A stretch of 60,936 bases of DNA from an uncultured Candidatus Saccharibacteria bacterium (GTDB lineage: Bacteria > Patescibacteriota > 4484-211 > JAGQKX01), in NCBI GenBank assembly GCA_964597265.1, contig CAZQWJ010000001.1, forward strand, positions 1 through 60,936. Reading direction: 5' to 3'. The number at the start of each line of letters is the position of its first letter. The stretch's first letter is position 1. The position numbers and the translations under genes were made by a program. A model generated the notes under the pieces. The model saw only the letters and a program-made list of their open reading frames with translations. It had not been told where the DNA came from and made no database searches. Positions 11,479 to 39,576 of this stretch are shown here, piece after piece.

Positions 11479-12780
11479 ATGCGTATCGCAATTCTAGGGG
11501 CGGGTTTCGCGGGGCTGGCTGCCGCGTACGAAGTACAAAGACAAGGGCACAATGCTGTTATTATAGACAAAGAAGCATACATTGGCGGGCTAGGCGCAGG
11601 ATTTCGGGAGCAGGTTGATGACTATCCGCCGAACTGGGATTGGGACCTGGAGCGCTATTACCATCACTGGTTTACAAACGACTCAGAGATATTCAGATTA
11701 GCCAAAGAGCTGCACGTCACGGATAAGATACTTATCAAACGCCCGGTTACCGCCAGCCTCATCAACGGTGCACGCTACCAACTCGATTCACCCATGGCAC
11801 TACTCACATTTTCTCCATTACCACTGTGGGATCGGATCCGTACTGGATTAGTATTGGGATTTCTTAAGCTCTTTCCATTTGGCCAGCTACTTGAACGGTG
11901 GACGGTGCATGACCTGCTTCCTACATTAGTCGGGCGACGTTCATACCAATTATTGTGGGAGCCACTTATGAAAGGTAAATTTGACGACCGATATCGCGAC
12001 ATTAACCTGGCATGGTTTTGGGCACGCATCTACAAACGCACCACCAAGCTGGCATATTTTGTAGGGGGATTTCAGGCGTTTGCGAACGAATTGGCAACAC
12101 ACATCAAGAAGCAGGGAGGCTCCCTGCTTTTGGGCGCTGATATCGAGAAAATCACACAGGCTGAATCTCAGTGGGAGATCACTATCAAAGGTCACACGCC
12201 AATCATTGCTGACCGCGTCATTGTAACCACGCCATTTCCGGTATTTGCCAAACTCTTCCCACAGCTACCTCCAGACTACGTCCAAACATACAGCCAATTA
12301 AAAGGCATTGGTGCCCAGGCACTGATAGTAGTGCTAAACAAACCATTCTTTGACGATCACACGTATTGGCTCAATATCCACGACACTGCGTGGCCGTTTT
12401 TGGTCATGGCAGAACATACCAACTTTGCCGACCCCAGCCACTATGGCGGGGACACGATACTCTACATAGGCAATTACCTTGCTGCAGATCACCCATTGAT
12501 GCAGCTATCAAAAGATACACTTATTGAAAACATCCTCCCGTACCTTAAGCGTATTAAGCCTGATTTTGATACTACCACTATCAAACACGCATGGCTCTGG
12601 CGCGCCCCATACGCCCAACCCATTGTTGAGGTCAATCACTCACAGCGTATTCCACCAATCACCACGCCACTACAACACGTATATCTTGCGAATATGAGCC
12701 AAGTGTACCCGTGGGATCGGGGTACCAATTATGCGGTTGAACTGGGGCGACACGCGGCACGACTGGCTACAAAAACATGA
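11479..12780 (+). CDS. FAD/NAD(P)-binding oxidoreductase (amine-oxidase/phytoene-desaturase-like fold)
   Basis: 'MRIAILGAGFAGLAAAYEVQRQGHNAVIIDKEAYIGGLG' Rossmann GxGxxG plus the downstream acidic-residue pattern. The upstream 44 codons of the track ORF overlap the divergent gene and were discarded. Confidence 0.8.
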   Translation: MRIAILGAGFAGLAAAYEVQRQGHNAVIIDKEAYIGGLGAGFREQVDDYPPNWDWDLERYYHHWFTNDSEIFRLAKELHVTDKILIKRPVTASLINGARYQLDSPMALLTFSPLPLWDRIRTGLVLGFLKLFPFGQLLERWTVHDLLPTLVGRRSYQLLWEPLMKGKFDDRYRDINLAWFWARIYKRTTKLAYFVGGFQAFANELATHIKKQGGSLLLGADIEKITQAESQWEITIKGHTPIIADRVIVTTPFPVFAKLFPQLPPDYVQTYSQLKGIGAQALIVVLNKPFFDDHTYWLNIHDTAWPFLVMAEHTNFADPSHYGGDTILYIGNYLAADHPLMQLSKDTLIENILPYLKRIKPDFDTTTIKHAWLWRAPYAQPIVEVNHSQRIPPITTPLQHVYLANMSQVYPWDRGTNYAVELGRHAARLATKT

Positions 12781-14225
12781 CACATACACACATACAAAGA
12801 AACATTCTTCTGGCTATACTGTGGGGGCTGTACGTCATCAGCTTCACAGTATTATTCCCTCTTACCAGCATTGCACCTAATCAATTTATTCCGTACGCAA
12901 CCACATTGACGCCGGTTACACTTGTTTTGTTTTTCTTATGCCTGATTGGTAGTGCCTGCATTGTGTATCATCTCCCTCGGTATCTACAAGGAATCACGGT
13001 CAAGTCAGCGCTTCTCTTGGTTACAGTGTTTTCTATTCCGTTTTTTCTTTCCTATCCTGGTGATTCGTATGATGTGTTTGTCAACATGTGGCAAGCCGAA
13101 CGGGTCATCACATACCATGAAAACCCGTACGCCAGTATCTTGGATACTAGCAATTACCCCACCCACGAATTTCTGCCTGATATTCAACAATACGTCCACC
13201 TGCCCTACGGTCCTATTTGGCTTGCCCTGCAAATAGGACTGTATAGCTTGGTCAGTAACACATCTATTCTGGTAGCCACGATATTTTTCAAAAGTGTCTT
13301 CTTGGTCTTATGGTTACTGTTTTCATACCTATTACTGACCATAACCGCCCGCACCAATAGCCATATACTCAAAGAATTAACCACACTTCTCATCTCACCG
13401 CTTCCCTTGGCAGGCATCATGGGCAACATGCACAATGATCTGATTCTACTGATATTTTGGCTAGGGATATATGTATGCTTAGTACGCAGAAAGCACGCTT
13501 TGACCATACTGCTTTTCCTATTGAATATATTCACCAAATTCATTGCTATTATTATCTTGCCATTGCTTCTGCTTTTTTATTTGCTGACTGCAGGTCGGTC
13601 GCGGTTTTTGATATGTGGCGTCTTACTAGGGCTTACCGTGGTAGGTATTGGGTTGGCGGAGTGGCAACTGGGATTTTTGCATGGTCTTGTTGACCAGACA
13701 AGTACATTTGGTGGATCAATCATTTTTGCTGCAAGCTTTTTTTTCAGTGATAGCATTGTCCTTGCCTTACGCAGCGTCTACTTTGCCGTGTTTGCCATCG
13801 TATACAGTATCGTACTTCGCCATGTGTATGTTACGTACAAAGACAACCGTCTGAATGAAACACGCCTTTTACAATGGGCAGGGTTCGTGATGACCATCGC
13901 GATCATTCTGCTCGTTCATTTTTTCGGATACCATTATTTGGTGTGGCCTATTCCGTTTCTTATCTTGTATAAAGACCCCAAATTACTACGATTCTATGCA
14001 TTTGCAAGCAGTATTGTTTTGACCGTTATGCTTATGACATTTATCATATATGACAACTCATATGGTGTACGATATAGCCAAGTGTACCTGTTTAATGCCA
14101 TTAACGTGCATACAGCATATTTATTGTTGTTCTTGCTCTCACATATCCTGATCACATCACTCGTATTGTATACAGGGTATCGGATGTACCGATATCTCAC
14201 GACTAATGAAAACCTTACGTCATAA
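12777..14225 (+). CDS. polytopic membrane protein, probable GT-C-fold glycosyltransferase
   Basis: 482 aa, highly hydrophobic throughout with more than 10 helices. Its start overlaps the upstream stop (ATGA). Family assignment is uncertain. Confidence 0.55.
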   Translation: MTHTHIQRNILLAILWGLYVISFTVLFPLTSIAPNQFIPYATTLTPVTLVLFFLCLIGSACIVYHLPRYLQGITVKSALLLVTVFSIPFFLSYPGDSYDVFVNMWQAERVITYHENPYASILDTSNYPTHEFLPDIQQYVHLPYGPIWLALQIGLYSLVSNTSILVATIFFKSVFLVLWLLFSYLLLTITARTNSHILKELTTLLISPLPLAGIMGNMHNDLILLIFWLGIYVCLVRRKHALTILLFLLNIFTKFIAIIILPLLLLFYLLTAGRSRFLICGVLLGLTVVGIGLAEWQLGFLHGLVDQTSTFGGSIIFAASFFFSDSIVLALRSVYFAVFAIVYSIVLRHVYVTYKDNRLNETRLLQWAGFVMTIAIILLVHFFGYHYLVWPIPFLILYKDPKLLRFYAFASSIVLTVMLMTFIIYDNSYGVRYSQVYLFNAINVHTAYLLLFLLSHILITSLVLYTGYRMYRYLTTNENLTS

Positions 14226-15912
14226 CCAAGTCCAGCTCGTGTTTATTATCTGCTGCATAGTGATCGGAGCTTGTGTGCGCATGTATAACCTAGGGTGGGG
14301 GCCATACTATTTTCATCCTGACGAACACAACATCGCCTACAGTATCAGCCAGTTGCGATTTCCTGATCAGATGCATCCTGATTTTTTTGTGTATGGTTCA
14401 TTCCCTATATATGTGGCGTATGGATTTGGCACACTGTTTGTTGGGGATATTGACCCTCAAGCCGCAGTCATGATTGCACGGTATATATCAGCGATTGCAT
14501 CCACCGCAACCATACCGCTCATATATATGCTGGTGAAAACACTCCTACATAGTACATCGTTGGCTATGATCGGTGCATTACTCGGGGTTTTTCTGACCGG
14601 CTTTACCCAGTATGCACACTTTGGCACGTTTGAAAGCCTGGTGACGCTTCTGTACTGTGCGATTGCATACTGGTCTATCCAGTACATCACAACCCGGACT
14701 AAAAAAGACCTACTCATCATAGCCACCTTAATTGGCCTGGCCATGGGTACCAGAATCAACAATACCTACCTGCTTGGCCTGCCATTTCTGCTCGCTGGCA
14801 TACACCGCTACCACAACGCTGCTCCTGGATTGCGCTCTTTCTTACAAGAGATTGAACTACACCGCATCCTACTGGACAAGCACGCCATCATGGCAATTCT
14901 ACTTGCAGGGGCTGTATTTGTCCTAACCAATCCGTTTGCCATACTTGATTTTCCATGGTTCATTGCAAGCCTAGCATCCGAAAGCAACATCGCCACAGGA
15001 GTACGGCCGGTGTTTTTTACCCGGAGTTTCCTGGACACCATACCCGGTGTATTTCAGCTAACCCAGGTATTGCCGTACATTAGCGGAATCCCGTTCACTA
15101 TCGCAGGCGTTCTGGGTGGCATAATCATCGTGTGGAAATGGTTTCGAACGGACACGCACGCGTTCAAGGCAATCCTGCCGCTTATGTACATCTTTGGCAT
15201 ATATGCATTACTCACGTTCACATTGTTCGTCAAATGGACGCGGTATGTGGTTCCGTTCGTACCGTTTTTGATCATTGGCGTACTTGTTGTGCTTGATGTG
15301 GTGAAAAAAGCAGCGGCACGACGCATCATCCCTGCTGCCTTGTTTTGGGTTCTGACTGTTGCGCTTCTACTGGATATTGGCATACGAGGACTATTGTTTT
15401 TCTCCATCTATACCAGGATCGACCCTCGCGTACAGGCATCCCAGTGGCTTTTTGAGCATATCCAATCGGACGAACAAATCTTGGTCCAGGACAAAGATCC
15501 TAACGCGATTCTCTTTTGGCTGACATTTCCTGAGCAAACCACCTTCTTCAATTTCTATGCATTATCAGGCACCTTGGATGAGGCCAATACAACGCATGTG
15601 ACATCACCAGAGCAATTAGCTCATCAACTGGCCCAAACAGATTGGATCGTCGTCCCCAGTCAACGGGTGTACGCTTCAGCGTTACGCCTACCGGAACACT
15701 TCCCGCATGAGGCAGCATTTTTTGGCGCGCTTTTTGAAAGAAAGTTGGGCTTTGCGCAGACAGTACAAACCCCACCCCACCCACTATCGGCAGACAATGC
15801 CGAGGAAACATTCACCGTGTATGATTACCCCACCATCACTATGTGGCACAAACAACACCCCTACAGCGCAGCAGAGTATGAGAAAATATTACGCAATCCA
15901 CAAGAACATTGA
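14206..15912 (+). CDS. GT39/PMT/ArnT-like GT-C glycosyltransferase, paralogue 1
   Basis: TM1, then the loop motif 'YYFHPDEHNIAYSISQLRFP'. Many TM helices and a C-terminal soluble domain ending 'AEETFTVYDYPTITMW'. Confidence 0.7.
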   Translation: MKTLRHNQVQLVFIICCIVIGACVRMYNLGWGPYYFHPDEHNIAYSISQLRFPDQMHPDFFVYGSFPIYVAYGFGTLFVGDIDPQAAVMIARYISAIASTATIPLIYMLVKTLLHSTSLAMIGALLGVFLTGFTQYAHFGTFESLVTLLYCAIAYWSIQYITTRTKKDLLIIATLIGLAMGTRINNTYLLGLPFLLAGIHRYHNAAPGLRSFLQEIELHRILLDKHAIMAILLAGAVFVLTNPFAILDFPWFIASLASESNIATGVRPVFFTRSFLDTIPGVFQLTQVLPYISGIPFTIAGVLGGIIIVWKWFRTDTHAFKAILPLMYIFGIYALLTFTLFVKWTRYVVPFVPFLIIGVLVVLDVVKKAAARRIIPAALFWVLTVALLLDIGIRGLLFFSIYTRIDPRVQASQWLFEHIQSDEQILVQDKDPNAILFWLTFPEQTTFFNFYALSGTLDEANTTHVTSPEQLAHQLAQTDWIVVPSQRVYASALRLPEHFPHEAAFFGALFERKLGFAQTVQTPPHPLSADNAEETFTVYDYPTITMWHKQHPYSAAEYEKILRNPQEH

Positions 15913-15928: not shown

Positions 15929-17776
15929 ATGGAAAACCTCTATAAAATAGCAACGATACCAAAAATGTTCGCAAGATACCGGGATGGCCGTTTGTACTCA
16001 TGGCTCGATGACGCGCCTAAATTGCGCACATTTTTGTGTATCGTTACTGTTACCACCCTGACCGTCATCGGAGGGTACCTCCGATTTTATAATCTCGACT
16101 GGGGGCAGCCGTTTTTGCATCCGGATGAATTCAACATCGGCCACGCCATCAGCACACTCGATTTCCCTCATCAACTCAATCCACAGTTTTTTGCCTATGG
16201 ATCATTTCCACTATACCTAACATACTTTCTGGGCGTGGTGATCAATACATTTCAAAGTACTCAAGAGGTCTGGAGCGTGTCGGCAAGCCAGGCAATTTTG
16301 ATCGGACGGTACGTGTCCGCGTTTCTTTCCACATTATTGATTCCACTCCTGTTTGTCCTTGCAAGGCAGCTGAAACTTTCCAAACCCCTCAGCCTTATCA
16401 TCACCGCGCTCGCAACATGCATGATCGGATTTATCCAATATGCCCACTTTGCCACGTTTGAAACCTTCCTCACCTTCTTCTACTGTCTGGCCGTCATCAT
16501 TGCACTCAAAGCAGTACAACGACCCACGCTCGCATGGCTCATTGCACTCAGCGTGATAACCGGTCTTGCTATCGCCACCAAAATCGTGAGCCTGTACCTC
16601 CTCGCCCTGCCGCTTATTGTCCTCCTGGCTATGCAGATCCCACAGGAAGCAAAAGATGATTCCCGTCTGTGGAAAGCCTTACTTCTTGATACATCTATCG
16701 CAAAACTGTTACATAATCCCAAATCATGGCTTTGCCTTGCACTAATACTACTGACATTTGTAGTAACCAATCCATTTACCTTTCTGGATTGGCAGAGTTT
16801 CTGGGGATCTATGCAATATGAACGTGGTGTGGCGGACGGGAGTTTGGCTGTGTTTTATACACGTGGATTTTTGGATACCATCCCAGGATTGTATCAACTC
16901 CAGCACGTACTACCTTTTATCTCCGGCTATGTCTTCACCGCCGTATCCATACTATCCGTACTGGTGGTTACTGTGACCGCATTACGCACCAAAGACCGGA
17001 CACATACCCCGTTGCTTATCTTGCTGTTTGTCCTTGGAGGATATCTTATCGTGCACCTTTTGATGTATGTCAAATGGACCCGCTACATGATCCCCGTGTT
17101 ACCATTACTGCTACTAGCTCTTGGCATTGCAGTGAAGTGGACATGGGAGAAACTTCCCCTCCCCATCATACGTATCACCCTAATAGCTCTAATCACCATC
17201 GTGATGGCAGAAATCTCCCTGCGCGGGGTTTCTTTTTCTCAGATCTATCGTGTTCCTGACACGCGCGTATCCGCAGCCCAGTGGGCACAGCACAACATTC
17301 CTCCTGATGTCACTATCCTATCAGAACAATATGACCCTGGTGTTATGCCTTTTAATAATGCTGTCCCAAACATGATCCGGTTGTTTAACCTGTATGACTA
17401 TGACACGCACCCTGATGGGATGTGGTCAACCACCAAACTTGCCCAGGAGTTATACCGCGCTGACGCAATTATTATCCCCAGCCGCAGGGTATACAAAACT
17501 GCAAGTAAACACCCTGATGCATTTCCTCGCGCCAACCAGTACTACCAGGCATTGTTTGATGGAGAATTGGGATATGAACTGGCTCACACCAGCAATCATA
17601 CACCGTGCGTACTACCAGCCGATCTGCCAGACGTTGTACGAATATTCAGCTGCCCGATTAACGACGAACATGCGGAAGAAACCTTTGTCGTGTTTGACCA
17701 CCCCACAGTGTTGATCTATCAGAAAACAACCCCACTCTCAGTGGAAGAATATCTCTCGGTATTGGAACGCGTATGA
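15929..17776 (+). CDS. GT39/PMT/ArnT-like GT-C glycosyltransferase, paralogue 2
   Basis: ATG at 15929 (MENLYK). Shares 'PFLHPDEFNIGHAISTLDFP', 'YGSFPLYL' and 'AEETFVVFDHPTVLIYQK' with its neighbours. Confidence 0.7.
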   Translation: MENLYKIATIPKMFARYRDGRLYSWLDDAPKLRTFLCIVTVTTLTVIGGYLRFYNLDWGQPFLHPDEFNIGHAISTLDFPHQLNPQFFAYGSFPLYLTYFLGVVINTFQSTQEVWSVSASQAILIGRYVSAFLSTLLIPLLFVLARQLKLSKPLSLIITALATCMIGFIQYAHFATFETFLTFFYCLAVIIALKAVQRPTLAWLIALSVITGLAIATKIVSLYLLALPLIVLLAMQIPQEAKDDSRLWKALLLDTSIAKLLHNPKSWLCLALILLTFVVTNPFTFLDWQSFWGSMQYERGVADGSLAVFYTRGFLDTIPGLYQLQHVLPFISGYVFTAVSILSVLVVTVTALRTKDRTHTPLLILLFVLGGYLIVHLLMYVKWTRYMIPVLPLLLLALGIAVKWTWEKLPLPIIRITLIALITIVMAEISLRGVSFSQIYRVPDTRVSAAQWAQHNIPPDVTILSEQYDPGVMPFNNAVPNMIRLFNLYDYDTHPDGMWSTTKLAQELYRADAIIIPSRRVYKTASKHPDAFPRANQYYQALFDGELGYELAHTSNHTPCVLPADLPDVVRIFSCPINDEHAEETFVVFDHPTVLIYQKTTPLSVEEYLSVLERV

Positions 17777-21701: not shown

Positions 21702-22133
21702 ATGAGACACTCCTTTGCAATTTTTGTTCTGCTATTTGCTTTCTGTTCATTGACGCTTGTTGCTCCCATAACTGCGCAAGCTCAACGCCCGACACCGGAT
21801 GTAGTCTGTCGGACAGATCCAAGTGATCCCGACAGTGACCCTGACCCCAGCCAAACATACATCGCCATTATCAACGACTGTGTTAATGTAGAAAGTTTCT
21901 TAACGTTTCTACTCAACCTCTTTATAATTGCTGGTGTCTTAGCCGCTATATATCGGATCTCAATAGGCCTCTTTCTTATTAACACCGCCTTAGGTGATCC
22001 CACCAAATTACAAAACGGGCGAGAAGCACTCACAGAAGCTGTGGTAGGATTATTAATAGTAGTTGGCGCGTGGGCATTGATTCAGTTTATAGAATCTTTT
22101 GCACCCGCTAATTGGTTCCTAAACCTAGCGTAG
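21702..22133 (+). CDS. VirB2/TrbC-like T4SS pilin paralogue 1
   Basis: Signal peptide ending 'ITAQAQ', a Cys pair (VVCRTD...NDCVNV), and two TM helices separated by a short polar loop. The C-terminal helix 'EAVVGLLIVVGAWALIQFI' aligns with paralogue 3. Confidence 0.6.
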   Translation: MRHSFAIFVLLFAFCSLTLVAPITAQAQRPTPDVVCRTDPSDPDSDPDPSQTYIAIINDCVNVESFLTFLLNLFIIAGVLAAIYRISIGLFLINTALGDPTKLQNGREALTEAVVGLLIVVGAWALIQFIESFAPANWFLNLA

Positions 22134-22465: not shown

Positions 22466-22519
22466 TCGAGGCTCTTGCGGAGGTTAGTACACTGTGCTAC
22501 GCTACTATACAGATAGACT

Positions 22520-22535
22520 TAGATCTTGAGATCTA
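22520..22535. promoter_or_regulatory. operator-like palindrome overlapping a putative promoter for pilin paralogue 3
   Basis: TAGATCT-TG-AGATCTA is a 7-bp inverted repeat. TTGAGA (22526-22531), a 17-nt spacer, then TAGAGT/TATATA. A strong SD (AAGGGGGTGGAG) lies 8-9 nt before the ATG at 22579. Confidence 0.35.
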
Positions 22536-22578
22536 CTTTCTTTTCAATTAGAGTATATAAAGGGGGTGGAGCAAAGTT

Positions 22579-33400: not shown

Positions 33401-33585
33401 CTGCTAGTACCAATGGTAGCTTTACTACGCCGGGACCGAACATCTGCGCTGTGCAGCTCTTATCTGACTGGGGAGCTAACGTCACACAAGGACCAGAAAT
33501 AATGTGTTGCAATCCGGATCTCCCTAATTTAAGTGGCTGCCAGCCAGCCCTGAATCAATCGACATGGACACCACCAATTCTTTAA
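30415..33585 (+). CDS. multidomain Cys-rich cell-wall hydrolase: GH-like region + SLT/lysozyme-like + two M23 peptidase domains
   Basis: An N-terminal TM. 'LTEIGWYE' and 'VGPNEPE' are GH-like. 'NPWLLMGMWATESAW' is the SLT motif, with the catalytic Glu codon at 32281. M23 number 1 has 'HFGQD' and 'THLHYEI'. M23 number 2 has 'HRPVD' and 'PPHIHL'. Gly/Pro linkers include 'PPGGGPGIPPPGGGGGG'. Confidence 0.75.
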   Translation: MQVTKNGQFIITVACIIAVIMLSRNELAIAPTPIAHAQQVPDVACIGNSVCQYLDGVMGDSRISSLQHLKFLSPVFNMTSPYFVDIVNTISQCSNYWEQLDGIAGNAYNFLNGPYIPDWVNTARNIPAIGSKPIVLTEIGWYELLQGSDRATALNNLTNSINWLKNPSNGVIGSMLFNVFNNNPGWSDYSMSDTEINTICSGSCDNIGANSAVYYSSSDASFYDPAGSHNMGWTIEIANNDTNPQLPSVMPGINSAHSRNITPVIRIGVMDSSGGFDTPAQYVNFLVTLNDLIAQNHQKDVYVIVGPNEPETECWASQQCFNGCSAGGGEQQASCALDDWPAVGPNVSAQNLVCACSGSTCAPWQPQTFNRPTNQDTGQADGTGQGFYQLFDYDVSLLLEIPPVLPYVSVGTPPGGGPGIPPPGGGGGGTCNPFNCFAPYVVDFATSLECAANSLRVEEPTWYWFDRYGPYCDNETRSLPFGYNFWVNFYDKYAPVGAAQRTCCNSSRNCSESPPGNPPRPQDVGMACPAQSDPLRQPGAEEFDYYRGALDTCGLTLAQQRWTTQNTLGLSIPELADHMYSLNMTYLGLSFNNVPRADVEAVLTKAQENNINPWLLMGMWATESAWSQTQSCQGGGGSVNGCLSCPVGFNNPGWDHCKVVTDPLYSGGTHFGQDFLGPQGSPVYATTGGIVETAGYIAGQGVGYMIRIAGNDGNAHVYFHLNLNVNDYVIAGDTVTAGQQIAEIGPVCLPSAVPGCDPKPTSTCASGCGNGLTNATHLHYEIYPPPNLSKPANCSLEPDPIDLLPPSCGGTCTGTGGGTPGGPGEGGSPPPPGTYGTGVGCSTTGYHPTGGSATNRFHWDGHRPVDLFAVDGAPAYAPYDGVSYPVDDLTGGYTIEFVPSDRCQPAMYYAHNRNSNRVSGNVTRGQQVGFVSNSGSACQPCTSQNCTTGEPGCSQPGRCRPGDTNCNLCNGSNGGRCYCNASANGQCSGPPHIHLAASTNGSFTTPGPNICAVQLLSDWGANVTQGPEIMCCNPDLPNLSGCQPALNQSTWTPPIL

Positions 33586-34758: not shown

Positions 34759-35295
34759 ATGCCTTTTACGCATAAGATTCCGCAAAATGTAACACAGTAC
34801 GAAAGCCGTATCGTTGGCAACTTTACCTCTCGCCAATTTATTTATTTGGCAGCTGGAGGCATTATTATTATGCTCTTTTTCATGCTGCCGTTTCCGCCTC
34901 TCGTTGGAATCATCGTAGCATTGGTGGTCCTACCTGTAACGCTCCTGTTGGCACTCATTAGTTTTGATGGTCGAAGAAGTGATATTTGGATCATCAATTT
35001 TGTGAATGCTGTTGCCGAACCCACGCAACGGATATGGGAAAAGGACGAAGTGCCACCACAAGTGCTTTTACCATCGTATGTTGTCCCTCACCACACAACG
35101 GAAAAAAGGCAAAAAACTGGTACCGATTTGGAGGAGTTTTTGGGTTTTTGGCGTGCCAATGAAGCAAAAAGCGACTATTCTTCAGAGGAACAGGCATTTC
35201 TTAACCGCATAGCCATGATGAGTCGATATTATGAAAGTGCTACCCAGGAACAATCGTCTCTGACAACAGAGCACAGCGACCAAACCGAACCATGA
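34759..35295 (+). CDS. PrgI-family (VirB3-like) T4SS membrane protein
   Basis: 'IPQNVTQYESRIVGNFTSRQFIYLAAGGIIIMLFF' followed by a second TM. This is the typical PrgI N-terminal pattern, and the gene lies upstream of VirB4. Confidence 0.6.
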   Translation: MPFTHKIPQNVTQYESRIVGNFTSRQFIYLAAGGIIIMLFFMLPFPPLVGIIVALVVLPVTLLLALISFDGRRSDIWIINFVNAVAEPTQRIWEKDEVPPQVLLPSYVVPHHTTEKRQKTGTDLEEFLGFWRANEAKSDYSSEEQAFLNRIAMMSRYYESATQEQSSLTTEHSDQTEP

Positions 35296-36602
35296 GAGAT
35301 TTAGCTACTAATAACAACAATCGAGCCATTTTTTCTCTTCCCGGAACCATTGTTTCGGCATCTCCGGTGCAAAAGATTGCCAATCAACGGGCAAATCGTC
35401 AATTGTCGCGTGCCGCGCTTTCACCTTCTGTTACGCCGATTTGGCGTCAACAAATATTTGCCCCATCTGCTGAACTGCAACGTCGCTTTACACCCCAAAA
35501 CGACATACCCAATGCAGCAACTGCTACTCCCCAATTATCGACCGAAGCCGAAGGCACAGCCAAACCACCTGCGCCACTCGCCCCGCAGCCGGCGGCAGTG
35601 CCAGATCAGCAATCACTACCCGATGACAGAAAGCAACAACCTACCCCATCCACAGCGCCAGATACCAAACCCGCTGCTAATGCACCACAACCCGTGCCCT
35701 CTACCAAACCAAAGCCAGCTTCCCCTACTCTGCCGCAGGATAAACCGCAACAACCGCCACCATCGCAACCCTCCCCTCCTGCCTCTGATTCTCATGAAAC
35801 AAACGCAGAGCTAAGCAAGTCTCTGGATGCTATCACGCATATACGGCAACAAATCCAATCACAAGAGCAAAAATTAAAACAGCTTGAGCAGCAAACACCC
35901 CAAGGACAACAAGAAGACATTGATACTGAGCAAAAAACAAAGGAAGCGCTTGTAAAAAACCTTGATCAAGCCATACAAAACACGCAAACGGAGCTACAAA
36001 CATACGCGGCTATGCCTGGAGCCAATACGACCATATTGGACGGGCTCAAAAAACAATTCAGGCAGCAAAAAGAATTATTCAACCGGTTAGTGCACGAAAG
36101 AGATTTGCTTGCCAAAAAGAAAGAGGCACTCAAGGAAAAAGCGCTCGAAGAGCAAAAAGCAAAAAAACAACTCGACTCCCTGCAACAACAGCATGAGCAG
36201 CTTGCACAGCAGTATCCGGTAGCTTCCTCACAAGCTGCGGCATCACCATCATCACCTCCTCCAACAGCTGCCTCTGCTCCACGACCAGCTCCGACTCAAG
36301 CGCCGACAAAAGTTGTTATGCCTGCAATCACCAAACAACCCAATGCAATCAACGGTATAGTTCAAAATGCGCAGGGGAAAATGATAACCGAGGCCATTGT
36401 TATCATCAAAGCGGCTGACCAGCGCCCCCTTAGGGCACTTAAGACCAACGAGCTTGGACAGTTCTGGATTACGACCGCCTTAGAAAACGGCGACTATGAG
36501 ATTCAGACAGAAAAAGACGATTTGAGCTTTGGTACAATAAAAATACATCTTGATGGATCGGTGGTCGAACCAATTCTTATCAAAGAACAGGCTGCATCGT
36601 GA
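35292..36602 (+). CDS. Pro/Gln-rich coiled-coil protein with C-terminal carboxypeptidase-regulatory-like beta domain
   Basis: A low-complexity PxxP tract (PPAPLAPQPAAVPDQQ...), a Q/E/K heptad region, and a C-terminal 'INGIVQNAQGKMITEAIVIIK...GDYEIQ'. No TM is seen. Confidence 0.45.
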   Translation: MRDLATNNNNRAIFSLPGTIVSASPVQKIANQRANRQLSRAALSPSVTPIWRQQIFAPSAELQRRFTPQNDIPNAATATPQLSTEAEGTAKPPAPLAPQPAAVPDQQSLPDDRKQQPTPSTAPDTKPAANAPQPVPSTKPKPASPTLPQDKPQQPPPSQPSPPASDSHETNAELSKSLDAITHIRQQIQSQEQKLKQLEQQTPQGQQEDIDTEQKTKEALVKNLDQAIQNTQTELQTYAAMPGANTTILDGLKKQFRQQKELFNRLVHERDLLAKKKEALKEKALEEQKAKKQLDSLQQQHEQLAQQYPVASSQAAASPSSPPPTAASAPRPAPTQAPTKVVMPAITKQPNAINGIVQNAQGKMITEAIVIIKAADQRPLRALKTNELGQFWITTALENGDYEIQTEKDDLSFGTIKIHLDGSVVEPILIKEQAAS

Positions 36603-37294
36603 CTATGGCTGGATTTATAGGGAGCACTCAAAATCATCTCGACATCATTGATATAAAAGATGATGTACTCGTACTCAAAGGAGGACGCTATCGTATTGTT
36701 CTGGAAGCACAGGCAATCAACTTTGACCTTTTGTCAGAGGCCGAACAGGATGCCGCGATTTACTCCTATGCCAACCTTGTTAACTCGTTGGATTTTCCGA
36801 TGCAAGTAGTGATCCGAACCAGGCAAGTTGATATTACCGAGTACATTGCGTATCTGCAGGGGTATAGCAAATTACAACCCACTGCAACGCTTAGGCAGCA
36901 ACTCGAAAACTACATCAAATTTGTACGCGAATTGGTATCAGAAAATACCGTACTGTACAAGAGGTTTTACGTTGTCATCCCACACACCAGCAAAGTCGCA
37001 GAACAATCCCAGAGTTTCCTCGACCCTTTTTTCAAGATCTTTGGCAAACAAGAACGTGTCAATTTGGAGTACTCTGCGAAACAACTGGAGGAGGCCAAGA
37101 AAGTTTTTACACAACGCACCCAAGAGCTCGCATGGCAGTTTCGTCGGCTAGGTATCGGTATCAGACAGCTCAATACAGAGGAACTTATCCGCTTGTTTTA
37201 TGATATTTATAACCCGGAAACAGGACAAAATGACGGCTTACAGACCGATCTTATGGGCTACACCAGCACCATTATCAAACCAAGTGTAGCTTAG
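36599..37294 (+). CDS. stand-alone protein resembling the N-terminal domain of VirB4/TrbE
   Basis: 'IIDIKDDVLVLKGGRYRIVLEAQAINFDLLSEAEQDAAIYSYANLVNSLDFPMQVVI' parallels the N-domain pattern of Gram-positive VirB4 proteins. No P-loop is present. Confidence 0.45.
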   Translation: MTMAGFIGSTQNHLDIIDIKDDVLVLKGGRYRIVLEAQAINFDLLSEAEQDAAIYSYANLVNSLDFPMQVVIRTRQVDITEYIAYLQGYSKLQPTATLRQQLENYIKFVRELVSENTVLYKRFYVVIPHTSKVAEQSQSFLDPFFKIFGKQERVNLEYSAKQLEEAKKVFTQRTQELAWQFRRLGIGIRQLNTEELIRLFYDIYNPETGQNDGLQTDLMGYTSTIIKPSVA

Positions 37295-37302: not shown

Positions 37303-39576
37303 ATGGCAAATCCGTTGCAGGGTCTACAAAAATTAATTAACAAACTCCTGCCGCTCCCATCAACTGCGGCTCAACCGGCAAACACCGGAGGCGCAACAGT
37401 GTCAGAGGAAGAAAAAGCTAAGCAAGAAGCAGAGAATGCAGAGGCAACAAAAAAAGCCGAGCAGTTTGCGCAGGGTATGCTCACTATCCGCGACCTGATC
37501 GCTCCTTCTGGCATGGAGCATGATTTCGGCTTTCTGAGGATTGGCCAGACATACTACCGGACGTTTTTTATCGCTGGGTACAGACGAGAAGTAGGAGCCA
37601 ACTGGTTATCACCGCTCATTAACTTTCCGCATGCCTTGGATATTGCCATGTTTTACTATCCCGTTGATGCACGGGAAGTACTAAACAACTTACGCCGGAA
37701 AGTTACCGAGATGGAGGCCGAACTCAACATTGAACAGCAACAGGGGCGCATTCTCGATCCAAGCGTTCAACTAGCCCTACAGGACGCACGCGCCTTGCAA
37801 GAAGATCTCGTAGCCGAACGGGAACGCTTTTTTCAATTTGGCCTTTATATAACCATTCCTGCAGAATCTCAAGAAGAGCTTAACCTCATTACCAAACAGC
37901 TCGAATCTGTCCTGGGATCAGCTACGCTCGTATCACGAAAAACTACTCTCCAGATGGAGGATGGTTTTCGATCGACATTGCCGTTTTTCCTGGACAAGAT
38001 TCAAGTGTACCGAAACATGGATACCACCTCGATTGCGACGACATTTCCATTTACGTCATCTAGTTTGACGTCTGATCGGGGGATCTTGTATGGCATTAAC
38101 GAACACAATGCCAGTTTGATTATCTTTGATCGATTCAGTCTTCCCAATGCCAACATGGTAGTATTTGCCAAATCAGGATCCGGTAAAAGCTATTTTGTAA
38201 AACTAGAAGCATTGCGGTCGTTAATGTTAGGTACGGAAGTCATTATTATTGACCCTGAAAATGAATACAAGACTATGGCAGAAGCCATCGGTGGCGAGTA
38301 TATTGCGCTTGATTTTAATTCATCATCAAAACTTAACCCATTTGATCTATCGCAGGTATACGAAGAAGGTGAAGATGAATTGGGCTTAAAGATCCTGACC
38401 CTGCACTCCATGATGAAGGTCATGCTGGGGGACATGAATCCTTCTGAAGAAGCAATCTTAGATCGCGCCCTTTTAGAAACATACCGACTCAAAGGGATTA
38501 CTCAGGATCCTGAAACCCAAAAACTCGACCCGCCGCTTTTGGAAGATCTGTACAAAGTTCTACTGGGAATGGAAGAAGCTGAGGCAAAAAATATTTCGGA
38601 TCGGCTGCAAAAATTTGTCGTTGGGTCTGCCAAAGGACTTTTTGACCAGCAGACCAATGTCGATATTCACAATACGTTTACGGTTTTTGGGATCAGGGAT
38701 CTGGAAGAAAGCGTGCGGCCAATTGGCATGTTCGCCGTGCTTGACTATATTTGGACGCGGGTACGCAGAGATCGCCGCAAGCGGATCCTGATTGTTGACG
38801 AGGCGTGGTTTATGATGAAGCACCCGGACAGTGCAAACTTTCTCCACAGTATTGCCAAGCGCGGACGTAAATATTACCTGGGTCTTACCACTATTACTCA
38901 AGACGTGGAAGATTTTTTGAATACAGACAAAGGCCGTGCTGTTGTAACCAACGCATCTATCCAAGTATTGTTTAAGCAATCTGTTTCCGCCATTAATCAT
39001 TTGACTGAGGTATTCTTCCTTTCCGAAGGGGAGCGAAATCTACTCATGTCTGCCAATGTGGGCGAAGGGCTATTTTTTGCCGGAGAAGCACACGTCGCCA
39101 TGCAGGTAATCGCCTCTCAGGACGAGCACGAAATCATTACCACCAATCCTGCGGAACTGGAAGCTATTGAACGGGCAAAGCAGTTGCAAGAAGTCGAGGT
39201 CGTTACAGAAGAGATTGGCGGGGAGCAAGAGGCAGCTGCATATGATTTTGGTACATCGGTTGACCAAGCACTACAAGAAGAAGCGCCTTCTGAGTCCGAG
39301 GCCAGCGGGGTGATAGAGTTTCAGCAACAGCCAGCAGAAGAACCACAACCACCCGCCCAGGAAACCGAGGAACCCTCTGCACAGGAGATCATCGCTCAGG
39401 CAATGAGCGAAGTGGAGGACTCTCAGTCGCAAGCAGAGATACCCGACACGTTGACCACTGAGATGCTTGATGAAAATCTCACGCAAACACCGCAAGAAAC
39501 TAGTGGGCAAGTAGATACTGAAGAGCAACCAGAAGGGGTCGTCCCAGAGGATGGCGCTACCACGTCATCGAGCTAA
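37303..39576 (+). CDS. virB4: VirB4/TrbE-family T4SS ATPase with acidic C-terminal extension
   Basis: N-domain 'TIRDLIAPSGMEHDFGFLRIGQTYYRTFFIAGY'. Walker A 'FAKSGSGKSYF' and Walker B 'RILIVDEAWFMM'. A C-terminal tail of about 140 aa is rich in Glu/Gln/Pro. Confidence 0.85.
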   Translation: MANPLQGLQKLINKLLPLPSTAAQPANTGGATVSEEEKAKQEAENAEATKKAEQFAQGMLTIRDLIAPSGMEHDFGFLRIGQTYYRTFFIAGYRREVGANWLSPLINFPHALDIAMFYYPVDAREVLNNLRRKVTEMEAELNIEQQQGRILDPSVQLALQDARALQEDLVAERERFFQFGLYITIPAESQEELNLITKQLESVLGSATLVSRKTTLQMEDGFRSTLPFFLDKIQVYRNMDTTSIATTFPFTSSSLTSDRGILYGINEHNASLIIFDRFSLPNANMVVFAKSGSGKSYFVKLEALRSLMLGTEVIIIDPENEYKTMAEAIGGEYIALDFNSSSKLNPFDLSQVYEEGEDELGLKILTLHSMMKVMLGDMNPSEEAILDRALLETYRLKGITQDPETQKLDPPLLEDLYKVLLGMEEAEAKNISDRLQKFVVGSAKGLFDQQTNVDIHNTFTVFGIRDLEESVRPIGMFAVLDYIWTRVRRDRRKRILIVDEAWFMMKHPDSANFLHSIAKRGRKYYLGLTTITQDVEDFLNTDKGRAVVTNASIQVLFKQSVSAINHLTEVFFLSEGERNLLMSANVGEGLFFAGEAHVAMQVIASQDEHEIITTNPAELEAIERAKQLQEVEVVTEEIGGEQEAAAYDFGTSVDQALQEEAPSESEASGVIEFQQQPAEEPQPPAQETEEPSAQEIIAQAMSEVEDSQSQAEIPDTLTTEMLDENLTQTPQETSGQVDTEEQPEGVVPEDGATTSSS

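What the first reader, a model, noticed from the sequence alone, without database searches (positions are those of the whole stretch)
11479..39576. A 28-kb, nearly gapless plus-strand supercluster joins a GT-C glycosyltransferase array to a T4SS-like apparatus
Twenty consecutive ORFs lie on one strand. Junctions are either overlaps (4 nt at 12777, 17773, 35292 and 36599; 20 nt at 14206; 22 nt at 33564) or gaps of 28 nt or less. The only exceptions are two gaps, 113 nt at 22466-22578 and 79 nt at 34680-34758. The last GT-C gene stops at 21696 and the first pilin-like gene starts at 21702. GT39/PMT/ArnT-type enzymes transfer sugars from polyprenyl-phosphate donors to secreted proteins or lipids outside the membrane. 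The downstream exported proteins carry Ser/Thr/Pro-rich linkers, for example 'GPTPTSSIDPTPTPQ' in 27226-29388 and 'PKPTSTC' in 30415-33585. One hypothesis is that this is a single functional unit in which a dedicated extracytoplasmic glycosylation module modifies the pilins or hydrolases of the secretion or attachment machine, or builds the envelope layer that machine crosses. I am not aware of such a coupling having been described.
Basis: partly seen in the sequence, partly recalled or inferred. Interest (0 to 1): 0.8.

Follow-up and report, generated by a model that had tools for sequence, protein, structure and literature searches.

The report
Glycosylation cassette abutting a Patescibacteria T4SS
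In this ultra-small (WWE3/Patescibacteria) bacterium, a widely conserved set of membrane sugar-transferase genes sits directly in front of the already-described secretion/pilus machine of this group. The one junction that evolution keeps is between a single uncharacterised transferase (DUF2298) and one small pilin gene, which suggests, but does not prove, that pilus proteins are glycosylated.

Summary
The run is real: 18 (not 20) plus-strand genes, 11479-39576, with every stated junction correct. Tight spacing, however, is normal for this genome.

It consists of two separately conserved modules.
- **Module 1** is an FAD oxidoreductase plus five GT-C glycosyltransferases: one MptA/B-like, three PMT-like, and DUF2298.
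- **Module 2** is the published oriC-proximal, relaxase-less, MPF-FATA-like T4SS of Patescibacteria: three VirB2-like pilins, a VirB6-like protein, M23 hydrolases, PrgI, a TrsD-like protein and VirB4.

The two modules are usually apart.
- The glycosylation cassette occurs in 73 evaluable Microgenomatia-type loci; a T4SS pilin follows it in only 2.
- None of 80 Microgenomatia-type T4SS loci carries the cassette (24 have at least 3 kb upstream).
- In deep WWE3 lineages the T4SS core lies elsewhere.

One junction is robust. DUF2298 followed by the ectodomain-bearing pilin p1 is kept in all 9 evaluable WWE3-clade loci, through several rearrangements. A DUF2298-to-pilin junction also arose a second time, with a different pilin, in a Levybacteria-like lineage. 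In Microgenomatia the same cassette follows type IV pilus PilN/PilO-like genes.

The DUF2298 model has a GT-C fold closest to AglB/STT3/DPY19.

The most likely function is a general surface-protein/pilus glycosylation system rather than a T4SS-dedicated one. No glycosylation has been shown.

The parts
11479..12780 (+). FAD-dependent oxidoreductase (phytoene-desaturase/HpnE-like); first gene of the glycosylation cassette and not a GT-C enzyme
   Evidence: Pfam Amino_oxidase E 1.2e-24. NCBIfam NF005560 PRK07233 E 4e-123. Heads the cassette in WWE3 and Levybacteria-like loci.
12777..14225 (+). Polytopic membrane protein, MptA/MptB-like GT-C glycosyltransferase
   Evidence: About 13 hydrophobic segments. 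No hit in the local Pfam copy. Orthologues in L001 and L004 carry the precomputed PF26314 MptA_B_family hit.
14206..15912 (+). PMT/ArnT-like GT-C glycosyltransferase, paralogue 1
   Evidence: Pfam PMT_2 at 29.0 bits (cut-off 26.1). 'HPDE' motif in the first loop. 34% identical to paralogue 2.
15929..17776 (+). PMT-like GT-C glycosyltransferase, paralogue 2 (start taken at the ATG 16 nt after the preceding stop)
   Evidence: Pfam PMT at 41.9 bits (cut-off 22.7). 'HPDE' motif.
17773..19488 (+). PMT-like GT-C glycosyltransferase, paralogue 3
   Evidence: Pfam PMT at 35.4 bits, PMT_2 at 25.9 bits. Weak ArnT hit. 'HPDE' motif.
19498..21696 (+). DUF2298 / Chlor_Arch_YYY membrane protein with a GT-C fold; the gene whose downstream junction with pilin p1 is conserved
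   Evidence: Pfam DUF2298 E 7e-104. TIGR03662 E 5e-162. AF2 model pLDDT 84.5, pTM 0.90. Foldseek best hits are AglB, DPY19, STT3, AftA and PglB.
21702..22133 (+). Pilin p1: VirB2-like pilin with a signal peptide and a Cys/Pro/Thr/Asp-rich N-terminal ectodomain; follows DUF2298 in every evaluable WWE3-clade locus
   Evidence: Pfam T4SS_pilin E 2.9e-5, below cut-off. Pilin HMM E 1e-35. Orthologue group with a C..C motif and an 'LPxxW' tail. Synteny.
22148..22465 (+). Pilin p2: VirB2-like pilin lacking the signal peptide that its orthologues have
   Evidence: Pfam T4SS_pilin E 2.7e-4. NCBIfam Mbov_0395 pilin-like E 1.2e-7. Alignment.
22466..22578 (+). Largest intergenic gap of the run, holding a conserved non-coding block and the SD-like AAAGGGGGTGG; probable start of a separate expression unit for p3 and the T4SS core
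   Evidence: Alignment of the p2-p3 spacers from window, L001, L004, L008 and L006. Almost no other gene in the window has an SD. No stable RNA fold (z 0.82).
22579..22962 (+). Pilin p3: VirB2-like pilin, probably the major subunit; its orthologues stay with the VirB6-like gene when the cluster is split
   Evidence: Pfam T4SS_pilin at 38.2 bits (cut-off 26.6). p3-type pilins precede the VirB6-like gene in L168, L169 and L171.
22991..27208 (+). 1405-aa protein: about 840-aa extracytoplasmic N-terminal part plus a polytopic VirB6/TrbL-like C-terminal part
   Evidence: Hydrophobic segments at residues 865-1070. No Pfam hit itself. Homologue P0133 carries PF04610 TrbL and PF19590 TrbL_3; P0139 carries PF19590 TrbL_3. 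Only 22 homologues, the named ones being WWE3.
27226..29388 (+). 720-aa exported protein of unknown family, with a PT-rich linker; an 'HPGID' motif resembles M23 peptidases (seen by eye only)
   Evidence: N-terminal hydrophobic segment. No Pfam hit. Syntenic orthologues in L001, L004, L006, L008 and L170.
29396..30409 (+). 337-aa membrane-anchored protein of unknown family
   Evidence: No Pfam hit. N-terminal hydrophobic segment. Syntenic orthologues.
30415..33585 (+). 1056-aa exported cell-wall hydrolase with two M23 (LytM-like) stretches; candidate VirB1 analogue
   Evidence: Pfam Peptidase_M23 E 1.1e-20. PDB LytM/lysostaphin hits. The role is as discussed for Patescibacteria in PMC12102498.
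33564..34679 (+). 371-aa membrane-anchored protein of unknown family
   Evidence: No Pfam hit. N-terminal hydrophobic segment.
34759..35295 (+). PrgI / VirB3-like protein, preceded by the 79-nt gap
   Evidence: Pfam PrgI E 5.7e-11, 43.3 bits (cut-off 27).
35292..36602 (+). 436-aa Pro/Gln-rich, probably coiled-coil (by eye) protein with a C-terminal CarboxypepD_reg-like domain; fused to PrgI in Microgenomatia
   Evidence: Pfam CarboxypepD_reg E 1.7e-5, below cut-off. PrgI+CarboxypepD_reg fusions of 408-417 aa in L068 and L030.
36599..37294 (+). 231-aa TrsD/TraC-like protein (related to the VirB4 N-terminal region)
   Evidence: No hit in the local Pfam copy. The orthologue in L170 carries PF26593 TraC-like. 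It always sits directly before VirB4. TrsD is described in PMC12102498.
37303..39576 (+). VirB4-type ATPase
   Evidence: Pfam P-loop_TraG E 2.3e-24, AAA_10, DUF87, CagE_TrbE_VirB. PDB 4ag5 VirB4-like protein E 3e-49.

Best explanation
The 28-kb run is two independently conserved modules lying end to end.

**Module 1 (11479-21696).** This is an extracytoplasmic glycosylation cassette: an FAD oxidoreductase plus five GT-C transferases, which as a class take sugars from polyprenyl-phosphate carriers on the outer face of the membrane. The same cassette is found across WWE3 and Microgenomatia. There it often carries UbiA, a PAP2 or HAD-like phosphatase and an SDR epimerase, i.e. genes that could make a lipid-linked sugar donor.

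**Module 2 (about 22579-39576).** This is the known chromosomal, oriC-proximal, relaxase-less MPF-FATA-like T4SS of Patescibacteria.

**The link.** In the WWE3 clade the cassette's last gene, DUF2298, is followed within a few nucleotides by p1, a minor VirB2-like pilin with a variable Cys/Pro/Thr-rich ectodomain. The pair is probably co-transcribed and possibly translationally coupled. Pilin p3 and the T4SS core probably start a separate unit at the 113-nt gap.

**Proposed function.** I propose the cassette is a general surface-protein/pilus glycosylation system, not one dedicated to the T4SS. Pilin p1 would be a preferred substrate, and other exported T4SS or type IV pilus proteins possible ones.

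**Shown versus inferred.** Shown: gene identities, the GT-C fold of DUF2298, and the synteny statistics. Inferred: co-transcription, the donor, the acceptor, and any glycosylation at all.
For: **Gene identities.**

**Published T4SS layout.** The T4SS half matches the described system: VirB4, PrgI/VirB3, TrsD, VirB6, VirB2 arrays, M23 hydrolases, proximity to dnaA/dnaN, no relaxase (PMC12102498; PMC10633639).

**Cassette conserved without a T4SS.** 71 of 73 evaluable non-WWE3 loci. None of 80 T4SS loci carries GT-C genes.

**DUF2298-to-p1 junction conserved.**
- It is kept in all 9 evaluable WWE3-clade loci while the gene upstream of DUF2298 varies: PMT, DUF362, a reversed 608-aa gene, a reversed methyltransferase, or a 529-aa gene.
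- In L005 and L172 p1 stays with DUF2298 (4-nt and 35-nt overlaps), with no VirB6/VirB4 gene called in the 4-10 kb of downstream sequence held. Meanwhile p3-type pilins stay with the VirB6-like gene in L168, L169 and L171.

**Independent second junction.** L030/L068 are nested among pilin-less Levybacteria-like relatives, and their pilin is orthologous to the last pilin of the Microgenomatia array.

**Third pilus link.** PilN/PilO/Ig-like genes lie upstream of the cassette in 42 of 57 Microgenomatia loci.

**Enzyme evidence.**
- DUF2298 model: best solved matches are AglB, DPY19, STT3 and PglB (protein-modifying) plus AftA. Its C-terminal domain resembles the AglB C-terminal globular domain.
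- The PMT-like paralogues exceed Pfam PMT cut-offs and keep the loop-1 'DE' motif.

**Substrate and boundary evidence.**
- p1 orthologues carry S/T/P-rich ectodomains, with (TP)n repeats in L172.
- A conserved spacer and SD lie before p3.
Against: - No experimental or direct sequence evidence shows that any pilin is glycosylated. No conserved acceptor motif was found in p1.
- Most genomes with the cassette have no pilin next to it, so pilins cannot be its only purpose.
- Within WWE3 the adjacency may trace to a single ancestral event plus inertia. The type-B split may be one inversion.
- An MptA/B-like polymerising GT-C, an LCP gene next to the cassette in Levybacteria-like loci, and the AftA match fit glycopolymer synthesis equally well.
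- Foldseek TM-scores are modest (0.31-0.44).
- My trees are rough neighbour-joining trees and my gene maps use a greedy ORF caller.
- Roughly 3 of about 18 distinct neighbour states are pilus-related against about 0.6 expected. This is only a post-hoc P of about 0.03.
Confidence: 0.42

Rival explanations
1. The link is synteny only. The cassette builds an envelope glycopolymer or lipoglycan (arabinan/mannan-like), or modifies lipids. It merely lies next to the T4SS in WWE3 because of lineage-specific gene order in a compact genome near oriC. Pilins are not its substrates.
For: - The cassette is conserved without a T4SS in 71 of 73 loci, and none of 80 T4SS loci has GT-C genes.
- An MptA/B-like gene, an LCP neighbour and FemAB/SpoIID cell-wall neighbours are present.
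- UbiA, phosphatase, SDR and FAD-enzyme genes recall the decaprenyl-phospho-arabinose pathway of cell-wall arabinan (own knowledge).
- AftA is among the best structural matches.
- Tight gene packing is genome-wide.
Against: - The DUF2298-p1 junction survives rearrangements that changed everything else around it.
- There is an independent second DUF2298-pilin junction.
- The cassette also follows type IV pilus genes in Microgenomatia.
- Four of the five distinct structural neighbours modify proteins.
Confidence: 0.33
2. The whole 28-kb run is one dedicated functional unit, in which the GT-C array exists to glycosylate the T4SS pilins and hydrolases or to build the layer that the T4SS crosses.
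For: - The run is uninterrupted and co-directional, with a 5-nt junction.
- The full layout is conserved in L001, L004 and L008, and its T4SS half in L170.
- PT-rich linkers occur in exported T4SS proteins.
Against: - The modules occur separately in most relatives.
- The cassette composition upstream of DUF2298 varies freely.
- A conserved regulatory-looking spacer splits the run before p3.
- PT linkers are generic.
Confidence: 0.07
3. Pilin p1 is not a working pilus subunit. It is a small two-helix membrane partner, chaperone or anchor of DUF2298 that merely shares the VirB2-like fold. The link would then be enzyme and accessory subunit rather than enzyme and substrate.
For: - p1 segregates with DUF2298 rather than with VirB6/VirB4 when the cluster is split.
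- p1 has no SD and a 5-nt or overlapping junction, suggesting stoichiometric co-expression.
- T4SS_pilin domains are reused as anchors in fusion proteins next to sortase in WWE3.
Against: - Microgenomatia DUF2298 genes have no such partner.
- p1 has a cleavable signal peptide and a variable, adhesin-like ectodomain typical of a minor or tip pilin. First-in-array pilins with large ectodomains also exist in Microgenomatia T4SS loci far from DUF2298.
Confidence: 0.08

Closest known systems
Chromosomal T4SS of Patescibacteria (Quinonero-Coronel et al. 2025, PMC12102498; essential T4SS of Southlakia epibionticum, Wang et al. 2023, PMC10633639)
   Same: - VirB4 of the monoderm (MPF-FATA-like) type, with a TrsD-like gene directly upstream.
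- PrgI/VirB3 and a VirB6-like protein.
- An array of divergent VirB2-like pilins.
- M23-type hydrolases in place of VirB1.
- No relaxase or coupling protein in the cluster.
- Location next to dnaN/dnaA.
   Different: - Here and in related WWE3 genomes a GT-C glycosylation cassette is fused to the pilin end of the cluster. Neither paper's main text mentions glycosyltransferases.
- PrgI and the CarboxypepD_reg protein are separate genes here but fused in Microgenomatia.
- The VirB6-like protein is very large (1405 aa), and its named homologues are all WWE3.
TfpW-type pilin glycosylation in Pseudomonas aeruginosa group IV type IV pili: a GT-C arabinosyltransferase encoded beside pilA, using decaprenyl-phospho-arabinose (own knowledge; the literature search failed)
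   Same: - A GT-C enzyme is encoded immediately beside a pilin gene.
- Relatives' cassettes carry UbiA, a phosphatase, an SDR and an FAD oxidoreductase, which is the logic of a polyprenyl-phospho-pentose donor pathway.
- The acceptor would be an exposed Ser/Thr/Pro-rich pilin segment.
   Different: - The pilin here is a VirB2-like T4SS pilin, not a type IV pilin.
- The enzyme is DUF2298/YYY, unrelated in sequence to TfpW as far as tested.
- The FAD enzyme is phytoene-desaturase-like, not DprE1-like.
- The donor and the modification are entirely unproven.
- The window itself lacks UbiA, phosphatase and SDR genes inside the run.
Actinobacterial envelope GT-C enzymes: Pmt protein O-mannosyltransferase (GT39) and the MptA/MptB lipomannan mannosyltransferases (family knowledge)
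   Same: - Three paralogues pass the Pfam PMT or PMT_2 cut-offs and keep the loop-1 Asp-Glu motif.
- One gene is MptA/B-like through its orthologues.
- All are polytopic membrane proteins.
   Different: - There is no sequence-level match to any solved PMT or ArnT structure.
- Each paralogue has its own C-terminal soluble domain.
- The acceptors are unknown.
- The organism is a Patescibacterium with an unknown envelope glycan repertoire.
STT3-family oligosaccharyltransferases (AglB, PglB, STT3), which glycosylate archaeal pilins, archaellins and S-layer proteins
   Same: The DUF2298 model has a GT-C fold. Its best solved matches are AglB (E 7e-8), STT3 and PglB. Its C-terminal globular domain resembles that of AglB (prob 0.99).
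   Different: - A sequence profile finds no PDB relative.
- TM-scores are only 0.31-0.44.
- There is no WWDYG motif; the conserved motifs are instead GLEKYMDYG, YYY, DLHxH and HEWLWRG.
- No N-X-S/T sequon was seen in the window's p1 and p3 (by eye).

Membership tests
Patescibacteria MPF-FATA-like T4SS | VirB4-type ATPase | tested here: met
   37303-39576: Pfam P-loop_TraG, AAA_10 and CagE_TrbE_VirB; PDB 4ag5 VirB4-like protein E 3e-49.
Patescibacteria MPF-FATA-like T4SS | VirB3/PrgI and a TrsD-like protein next to VirB4 | tested here: met
   PrgI at 43.3 bits. The 231-aa gene sits directly before VirB4, and its L170 orthologue carries PF26593 TraC-like. The same order is seen in most of the 80 related loci.
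Patescibacteria MPF-FATA-like T4SS | VirB6/TrbL-like polytopic channel protein | tested here: inconclusive
   The window protein has no Pfam hit. It has 6-7 C-terminal hydrophobic segments, and its homologues P0133 and P0139 carry PF04610/PF19590.
Patescibacteria MPF-FATA-like T4SS | Array of VirB2-like pilins | tested here: met
   Three T4SS_pilin hits. p3 is above the cut-off (38.2 vs 26.6 bits); p1 and p2 are below it. A family HMM recovers all three.
Patescibacteria MPF-FATA-like T4SS | Chromosomal, near dnaA/dnaN, with no relaxase or coupling protein in the cluster | tested here: met
   recF, dnaN and dnaA lie at 39565-45148. No relaxase or VirD4 family was hit among the ORFs I scanned (most ORFs of at least 120 aa). 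The rest of the genome was not seen.
Conjugative (DNA-transfer) T4SS | Relaxase plus type IV coupling protein | tested here: not met
   None found in the 61-kb window. This agrees with PMC12102498.
GT-C glycosyltransferases, PMT/GT39-like | Pfam PMT/PMT_2 above cut-off, polytopic topology, and an Asp-Glu motif in the first extracytoplasmic loop | tested here: met
   29.0, 41.9 and 35.4 bits for the three paralogues. HPDE motif in each. 7-11 hydrophobic segments.
GT-C glycosyltransferases, PMT/GT39-like | Transfer of mannose from polyprenyl-phosphate-mannose to protein Ser/Thr | not testable with these tools
   Needs biochemistry. No polyprenyl-phosphate sugar synthase (GT2) was found in the window.
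DUF2298 / Chlor_Arch_YYY (TIGR03662) | Full-length match to the family model, including the YYY motif | tested here: met
   Pfam 348.8 bits. TIGR03662 541 bits (cut-off 300). INYYYFGH is invariant in 18 sequences.
STT3/AglB/PglB oligosaccharyltransferases | GT-C fold with a C-terminal globular domain | tested here: met
   Foldseek: AglB E 7e-8, STT3 and PglB; the AglB-S2 C-terminal domain matches at prob 0.99.
STT3/AglB/PglB oligosaccharyltransferases | WWDYG motif and sequence-level homology | tested here: not met
   No PDB hit with the family profile at E up to 1. No WWDYG among the invariant columns. DUF2298 is therefore not filed as an STT3 member.
Pilin-linked GT-C glycosylation system (TfpW-like logic) | GT-C gene immediately adjacent to a pilin gene, conserved across relatives | tested here: met
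   9 of 9 evaluable WWE3-clade loci, plus L030/L068 independently.
Pilin-linked GT-C glycosylation system (TfpW-like logic) | Lipid-linked donor pathway encoded with it | tested here: inconclusive
   UbiA, PAP2/HAD, an SDR and an FAD oxidoreductase are present in relatives' cassettes. In the window run only the FAD oxidoreductase is present.
Pilin-linked GT-C glycosylation system (TfpW-like logic) | Glycan actually present on the pilin and dependent on the enzyme | not testable with these tools
   Requires mass spectrometry or genetics.
Single operon | One transcript across 11479-39576 | not testable with these tools
   Consensus scans are uninformative. A conserved spacer plus SD before p3 argues for at least one internal start.

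The most novel reading that the evidence does not exclude
DUF2298/YYY proteins are a new, STT3-like family of protein glycosyltransferases of monoderm-type lineages. In Patescibacteria they glycosylate pilus subunits. These would include a VirB2-like T4SS pilin, which would be the first glycosylated conjugative-type pilin. The sugars would come from a polyprenyl-phosphate (possibly pentose, DPA-like) donor made by the co-clustered UbiA, phosphatase and oxidoreductase genes. The same cassette would serve both type IV pili and the T4SS-like pilus that these epibionts need for host contact.
Probability: 0.18. Interest if true: 0.8.

Novelty: new variant of a known kind. Interest (0 to 1): 0.5.

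Why it matters
**Background.** Patescibacteria make up a large share of bacterial diversity and live attached to host cells. Their T4SS and its pilins are essential for epibiotic growth in the one genetically tractable species (PMC10633639), yet what the machine does is unknown.

**If the link is real.** If the conserved DUF2298-pilin link reflects pilin glycosylation, three things follow.
- A large uncharacterised GT-C family (DUF2298/YYY), also present in Archaea and Chloroflexi according to the TIGR03662 family description (own knowledge), would gain a function.
- A new post-translational modification would be added to T4SS-type pilins.
- Surface glycans would emerge as a determinant of host recognition.

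**If the link is only synteny.** The finding then reduces to a known T4SS lying next to an envelope-glycan cassette.

**A usable comparative result either way.** Two modules were delimited, and the specific conserved junction (DUF2298 to p1) was identified. A parallel link of the same cassette to type IV pilus genes was found in Microgenomatia.

Tried and rejected
- **Hidden pilins downstream of DUF2298 in Microgenomatia.** A pilin HMM built from WWE3 pilins and iterated found none. Inspection of 46 small plus-strand ORFs downstream of DUF2298 found none either, apart from L009, which is a truncated p1.
- **Promoter and terminator scans.** Promoter-like matches were at or below shuffle expectation; terminator-like matches were slightly above it. 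They were not used as evidence.
- **RNA structure in the 113-nt gap.** No better than shuffles (z 0.82).
- **Sequence searches of DUF2298 and a PMT paralogue against the PDB.** No hits. Only the fold comparison was informative.
- **A conserved acceptor motif or N-X-S/T sequon in p1.** None found.
- **A diversity-generating retroelement near the Avd-like gene between pilins in L006.** No template/variable repeat pair within 11 kb.
- **AmOx as UDP-galactopyranose mutase or DprE1.** Rejected. It is phytoene-desaturase/HpnE/protoporphyrinogen-oxidase-like.
- **Literature.** Several full-text searches failed on time-outs: pilin glycosylation plus VirB2, TfpW, and Saccharibacteria plus glycosyltransferase. 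The search of the supplements of PMC12102498 for PF10060 and PF13231 also failed. 'Not described' therefore rests on two papers' main texts and two successful searches.
- **Tight spacing as evidence of a single unit.** Rejected after comparison with the rest of the window.

Full report
**1. Observation**

The window is a Patescibacteria chromosome segment.
- The DUF2298 protein's closest named relatives are from candidate division WWE3.
- The window holds a tmRNA and two tRNA-Ser genes.
- It holds recF, dnaN and dnaA, and the cumulative GC-skew minimum lies at about 44 kb, so oriC lies just right of the cluster.

From 11479 to 39576 there is an unbroken plus-strand run. I count 18 ORFs of at least 60 aa, not 20.

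The spacing is only modestly tighter than the genome background. The median same-strand gap is 7 nt inside the run and 27 nt outside. Unrelated genes (recF/PEGA-SH3/dnaN; yidC/jag/Wzy_C/RNase H/Wzz) overlap in the same way. Consensus promoter and terminator scans are uninformative.

**2. Gene content: glycosylation half**

| Coordinates | Identity | Evidence |
|---|---|---|
| 11479-12780 | FAD oxidoreductase of the phytoene-desaturase/HpnE type, not a GT-C enzyme | PRK07233, E 4e-123 |
| 12777-14225 | 13-helix membrane protein; orthologues are MptA_B_family | |
| 14206-19488 | Three PMT/PMT_2 paralogues above Pfam cut-offs, each with the loop-1 HPDE motif | |
| 19498-21696 | DUF2298 / Chlor_Arch_YYY | E 7e-104; TIGR03662 E 5e-162 |

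DUF2298 is essentially uncharacterised. Only two papers in the library mention it, both in passing.

An AlphaFold2 model of DUF2298 (pLDDT 84.5, pTM 0.90) has a GT-C fold. Its best solved matches are AglB, DPY19, STT3, AftA and PglB (E 7e-8 to 1e-4, TM 0.31-0.44). Its C-terminal domain resembles the AglB C-terminal globular domain. There is no sequence-level PDB match and no WWDYG motif.

**3. Gene content: T4SS half**

- Three VirB2-like pilins: p1 at 21702, p2 at 22148, p3 at 22579.
- A 1405-aa protein with a polytopic C-terminal part. Its homologues carry TrbL/VirB6 domains.
- Exported proteins, including a double-M23 hydrolase.
- PrgI/VirB3, a CarboxypepD_reg protein, and a TrsD/TraC-like protein.
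- VirB4.

No relaxase or coupling protein is in the window. This matches the T4SS described for Patescibacteria, including its position near dnaA/dnaN (PMC12102498). It also matches the essential, pilin-bearing T4SS of Southlakia epibionticum (PMC10633639). This half is therefore already known.

**4. Is the adjacency conserved? DUF2298 side**

Within the WWE3-like clade:
- Relatives with 46-50% identical DUF2298 (L001-L004, L008) have the same full layout.
- At 42-43% identity (L006, L007) the GT-C array is remodelled (UbiA, DUF362, a reversed gene), but DUF2298, the pilins and the VirB6-like gene persist in order.
- In L173/L009 the array differs again and VirB4 is reversed, yet DUF2298 is followed after about 40-90 nt by a 211-aa p1.
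- In L005 and L172 the neighbourhood is entirely different. No VirB6 or VirB4 gene is called in the 4-10 kb of downstream sequence held, yet a p1-type pilin overlaps the end of DUF2298 by 4 or 35 nt.

All 9 evaluable loci of the WWE3-like clade therefore keep the DUF2298-to-p1 junction, while the gene upstream of DUF2298 varies.

Outside that clade, 80 species representatives were retrieved from GTDB, mostly Microgenomatia.
- 73 non-WWE3 loci are evaluable.
- Only L030 and L068 have a pilin next to DUF2298. In both it is followed by PrgI-fusion, TrsD-like and, in L068, VirB4 genes.
- In a rough neighbour-joining tree these two are sisters, nested among Levybacteria-like loci that lack the pilin.
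- Their pilin groups with the last pilin of Microgenomatia arrays, not with p1. This is a second, independent juxtaposition.

**5. Is the adjacency conserved? T4SS side**

- A VirB4-based metagenome scan gave 80 Microgenomatia-type loci. Their standard order is pilin x3-6, PrgI-fusion, TrsD-like, VirB4 and further genes, ending at dnaN and dnaA.
- None carries any cassette gene. Of these loci, 24 have at least 3 kb upstream of the first T4SS gene.
- The 1405-aa VirB6-like protein has only 22 homologues; every one that carries a clear taxon name is WWE3 (one is labelled Cloacimonetes, probably a mis-binned MAG).
- In four deep WWE3 loci (L168, L169, L171 and the P0136 locus) a p3-type pilin and the VirB6-like gene are flanked by housekeeping genes (MraY-like, SBP and GroES/EL downstream; SecDF and RecJ upstream in L171 and the P0136 locus). 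No GT-C gene lies within the 1.5-10 kb held upstream.
- Overlapping synteny (TruB and a 314-aa gene) suggests that in these genomes the DUF2298-p1 pair lies about 10-14 kb away in convergent orientation. One inversion with a breakpoint between p1 and p3 would produce this.

The two modules are therefore separable. When they separate, p1 goes with DUF2298 and p3 goes with the T4SS.

**6. Where is the internal boundary?**

- The largest gap in the pilin region always precedes p3.
- That spacer contains a block conserved in four relatives, and the SD-like AAAGGGGGTGG conserved in five.
- Almost no other gene in the window has any SD.
- The spacer has no significant RNA fold.

The natural boundary is thus 22466-22578, not 21696/21702. 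Pilin p1, and perhaps p2, is expressed with the cassette.

**7. What the cassette looks like elsewhere**

Microgenomatia have two variants.

| Variant | Cassette genes | Followed by |
|---|---|---|
| Levybacteria-like | AmOx, PMT x2-4, SDR epimerase, HAD-like, DUF2298 | LCP on the opposite strand |
| Shapiro/Woesebacteria-like | UbiA, PMT x2, GT4, PAP2, DUF2298 | UvrD and FemAB |

The combination of UbiA, a phosphatase, an FAD enzyme and an SDR recalls the logic of the polyprenyl-phospho-arabinose pathway. This is my own knowledge and an inference.

Unexpectedly, 42 of 57 loci with enough upstream sequence have type IV pilus PilN/PilO-like genes and an Ig-like protein directly upstream on the same strand (PilO Pfam E 1e-14). 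L030 carries T4P-assembly genes, the cassette and T4SS genes on one strand.

The cassette has therefore become linked to pilus genes at least three times: once to T4P genes and twice to T4SS pilins. Roughly 3 of about 18 distinct neighbour states are pilus-related, against about 0.6 expected. This is suggestive, but it is a post-hoc count.

**8. Acceptor-side hints**

- p1 orthologues share a C..C motif and an 'LPxxW' tail.
- They carry a variable Cys/Pro/Thr-rich ectodomain of 31-212 aa, with (TP)n repeats in L172.
- p2 and p3 have short N-termini.
- No conserved acceptor motif was found.
- PT linkers in the hydrolases are generic.

**9. Interpretation**

The best-supported view (confidence about 0.42) has three parts.
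- Two modules lie end to end.
- The cassette is a general extracytoplasmic glycosylation system associated with pilus or surface proteins.
- In WWE3, p1 is co-expressed with DUF2298 and is its likeliest substrate.

The main rival (about 0.33) is envelope glycopolymer synthesis with adjacency by descent only. A further possibility is that p1 is an accessory partner of DUF2298 (about 0.08). Nothing here shows glycosylation.

**10. Novelty and score**

- The T4SS is known.
- GT-C genes next to type IV pilin genes are known (TfpW; own knowledge).
- A conserved GT-C/VirB2-like-pilin pair, and the cassette's parallel link to T4P genes in Patescibacteria, are not mentioned in the literature I could read. 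Several searches failed, so this is provisional.
- I rate it a new variant of a known kind, with interest 0.5.

**11. Caveats**

- Gene maps use a greedy ORF caller, with labels transferred by phmmer.
- Trees are neighbour-joining on trimmed alignments.
- Several loci come from near-identical organisms (L001/L002/L003/L170; L009/L173).
- Many record titles of the metagenome-assembled genomes are clearly mislabelled.

Noticed in passing
L009-L087 (e.g. L046 625-3585; L036 1186-3986; L030 119-3017): In most Microgenomatia loci the GT-C cassette is directly preceded, on the same strand, by type IV pilus PilN/PilO-like genes, a gene of about 105-124 aa and a Big_13/fn3 Ig-like protein (42 of 57 loci with at least 9 kb upstream). 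L030 carries T4P-assembly genes, the cassette and T4SS genes on one strand.
   Followed up: partly
window 22466-22578 and the equivalent spacers in L001, L004, L008, L006: A conserved non-coding block and a strong SD-like AAAGGGGGTGG lie upstream of pilin p3. Almost no other gene in the window has any Shine-Dalgarno match, so p3 looks specially expressed (major pilin?).
   Followed up: partly
window 11479-39576 relative to 43409-43738: The whole 28-kb cluster is transcribed toward the putative oriC (the dnaN/dnaA gap; GC-skew minimum at about 44 kb). That places it on the lagging strand, head-on with replication. The Microgenomatia T4SS loci (L088-L167) have the same orientation relative to dnaN/dnaA.
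   Followed up: no
window 22148-22465: Pilin p2 starts at about the mature N-terminus and lacks the signal peptide present in its orthologues (L001, L004, L008). It may insert without cleavage or may be decaying.
   Followed up: no
window 34759-35295 and 35292-36602; L068 12774-14000; L030 12240-13493: PrgI (VirB3-like) and the CarboxypepD_reg protein are two genes with a 4-nt overlap in WWE3. In Microgenomatia they form a single 408-417-aa fusion protein.
   Followed up: partly
L006 12872-13237: An Avd-like gene (23S_rRNA_IVP/bAvd, the accessory protein of diversity-generating retroelements) is inserted between pilins p1 and p2. No template/variable repeat pair was found within 11 kb.
   Followed up: partly
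L168 20976-22936; L169 12964-14505; L171 20782-22549: Deep WWE3 lineages encode a T4SS_pilin domain fused to a CarboxypepD_reg domain (seen in L169 and the P0136 locus; partial domain hits in L168 and L171), immediately followed by a sortase gene. This suggests pilin-like anchors for sortase-processed surface proteins.
   Followed up: no
L005 12706-13776; L172 13331-14401: In type-B WWE3 genomes the DUF2298-p1 pair is followed by a conserved 356-aa CAP-domain (cysteine-rich secretory protein family) gene.
   Followed up: no
window 46903-52301: A second envelope-polysaccharide group lies right of oriC: a Wzy_C (O-antigen-ligase-like) protein, a Wzz-like protein, and a 1022-aa fusion of an NAD epimerase/dehydratase with DUF4012. 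An RNase H/RVT_3 gene (48167-48586) is wedged between them.
   Followed up: no
window 5796-6207 (-): A tmRNA with the unusual tag peptide AITQTFDNIATAFAVPAFA lies in the same 6-kb stretch as two tRNA-Ser genes (1298-1386 and 4209-4295).
   Followed up: no
window 6856-8817 (-) and 8994-9590 (-): Two ORFs (653 aa and 198 aa) upstream of the divergent SpoIID gene have no Pfam family. Syntenic ORFs of similar size and position in L001 and L004 (636/620 aa and 192/190 aa) are likewise almost unannotated (the 192-aa L001 gene has only a weak bPH_2 hit).
   Followed up: no
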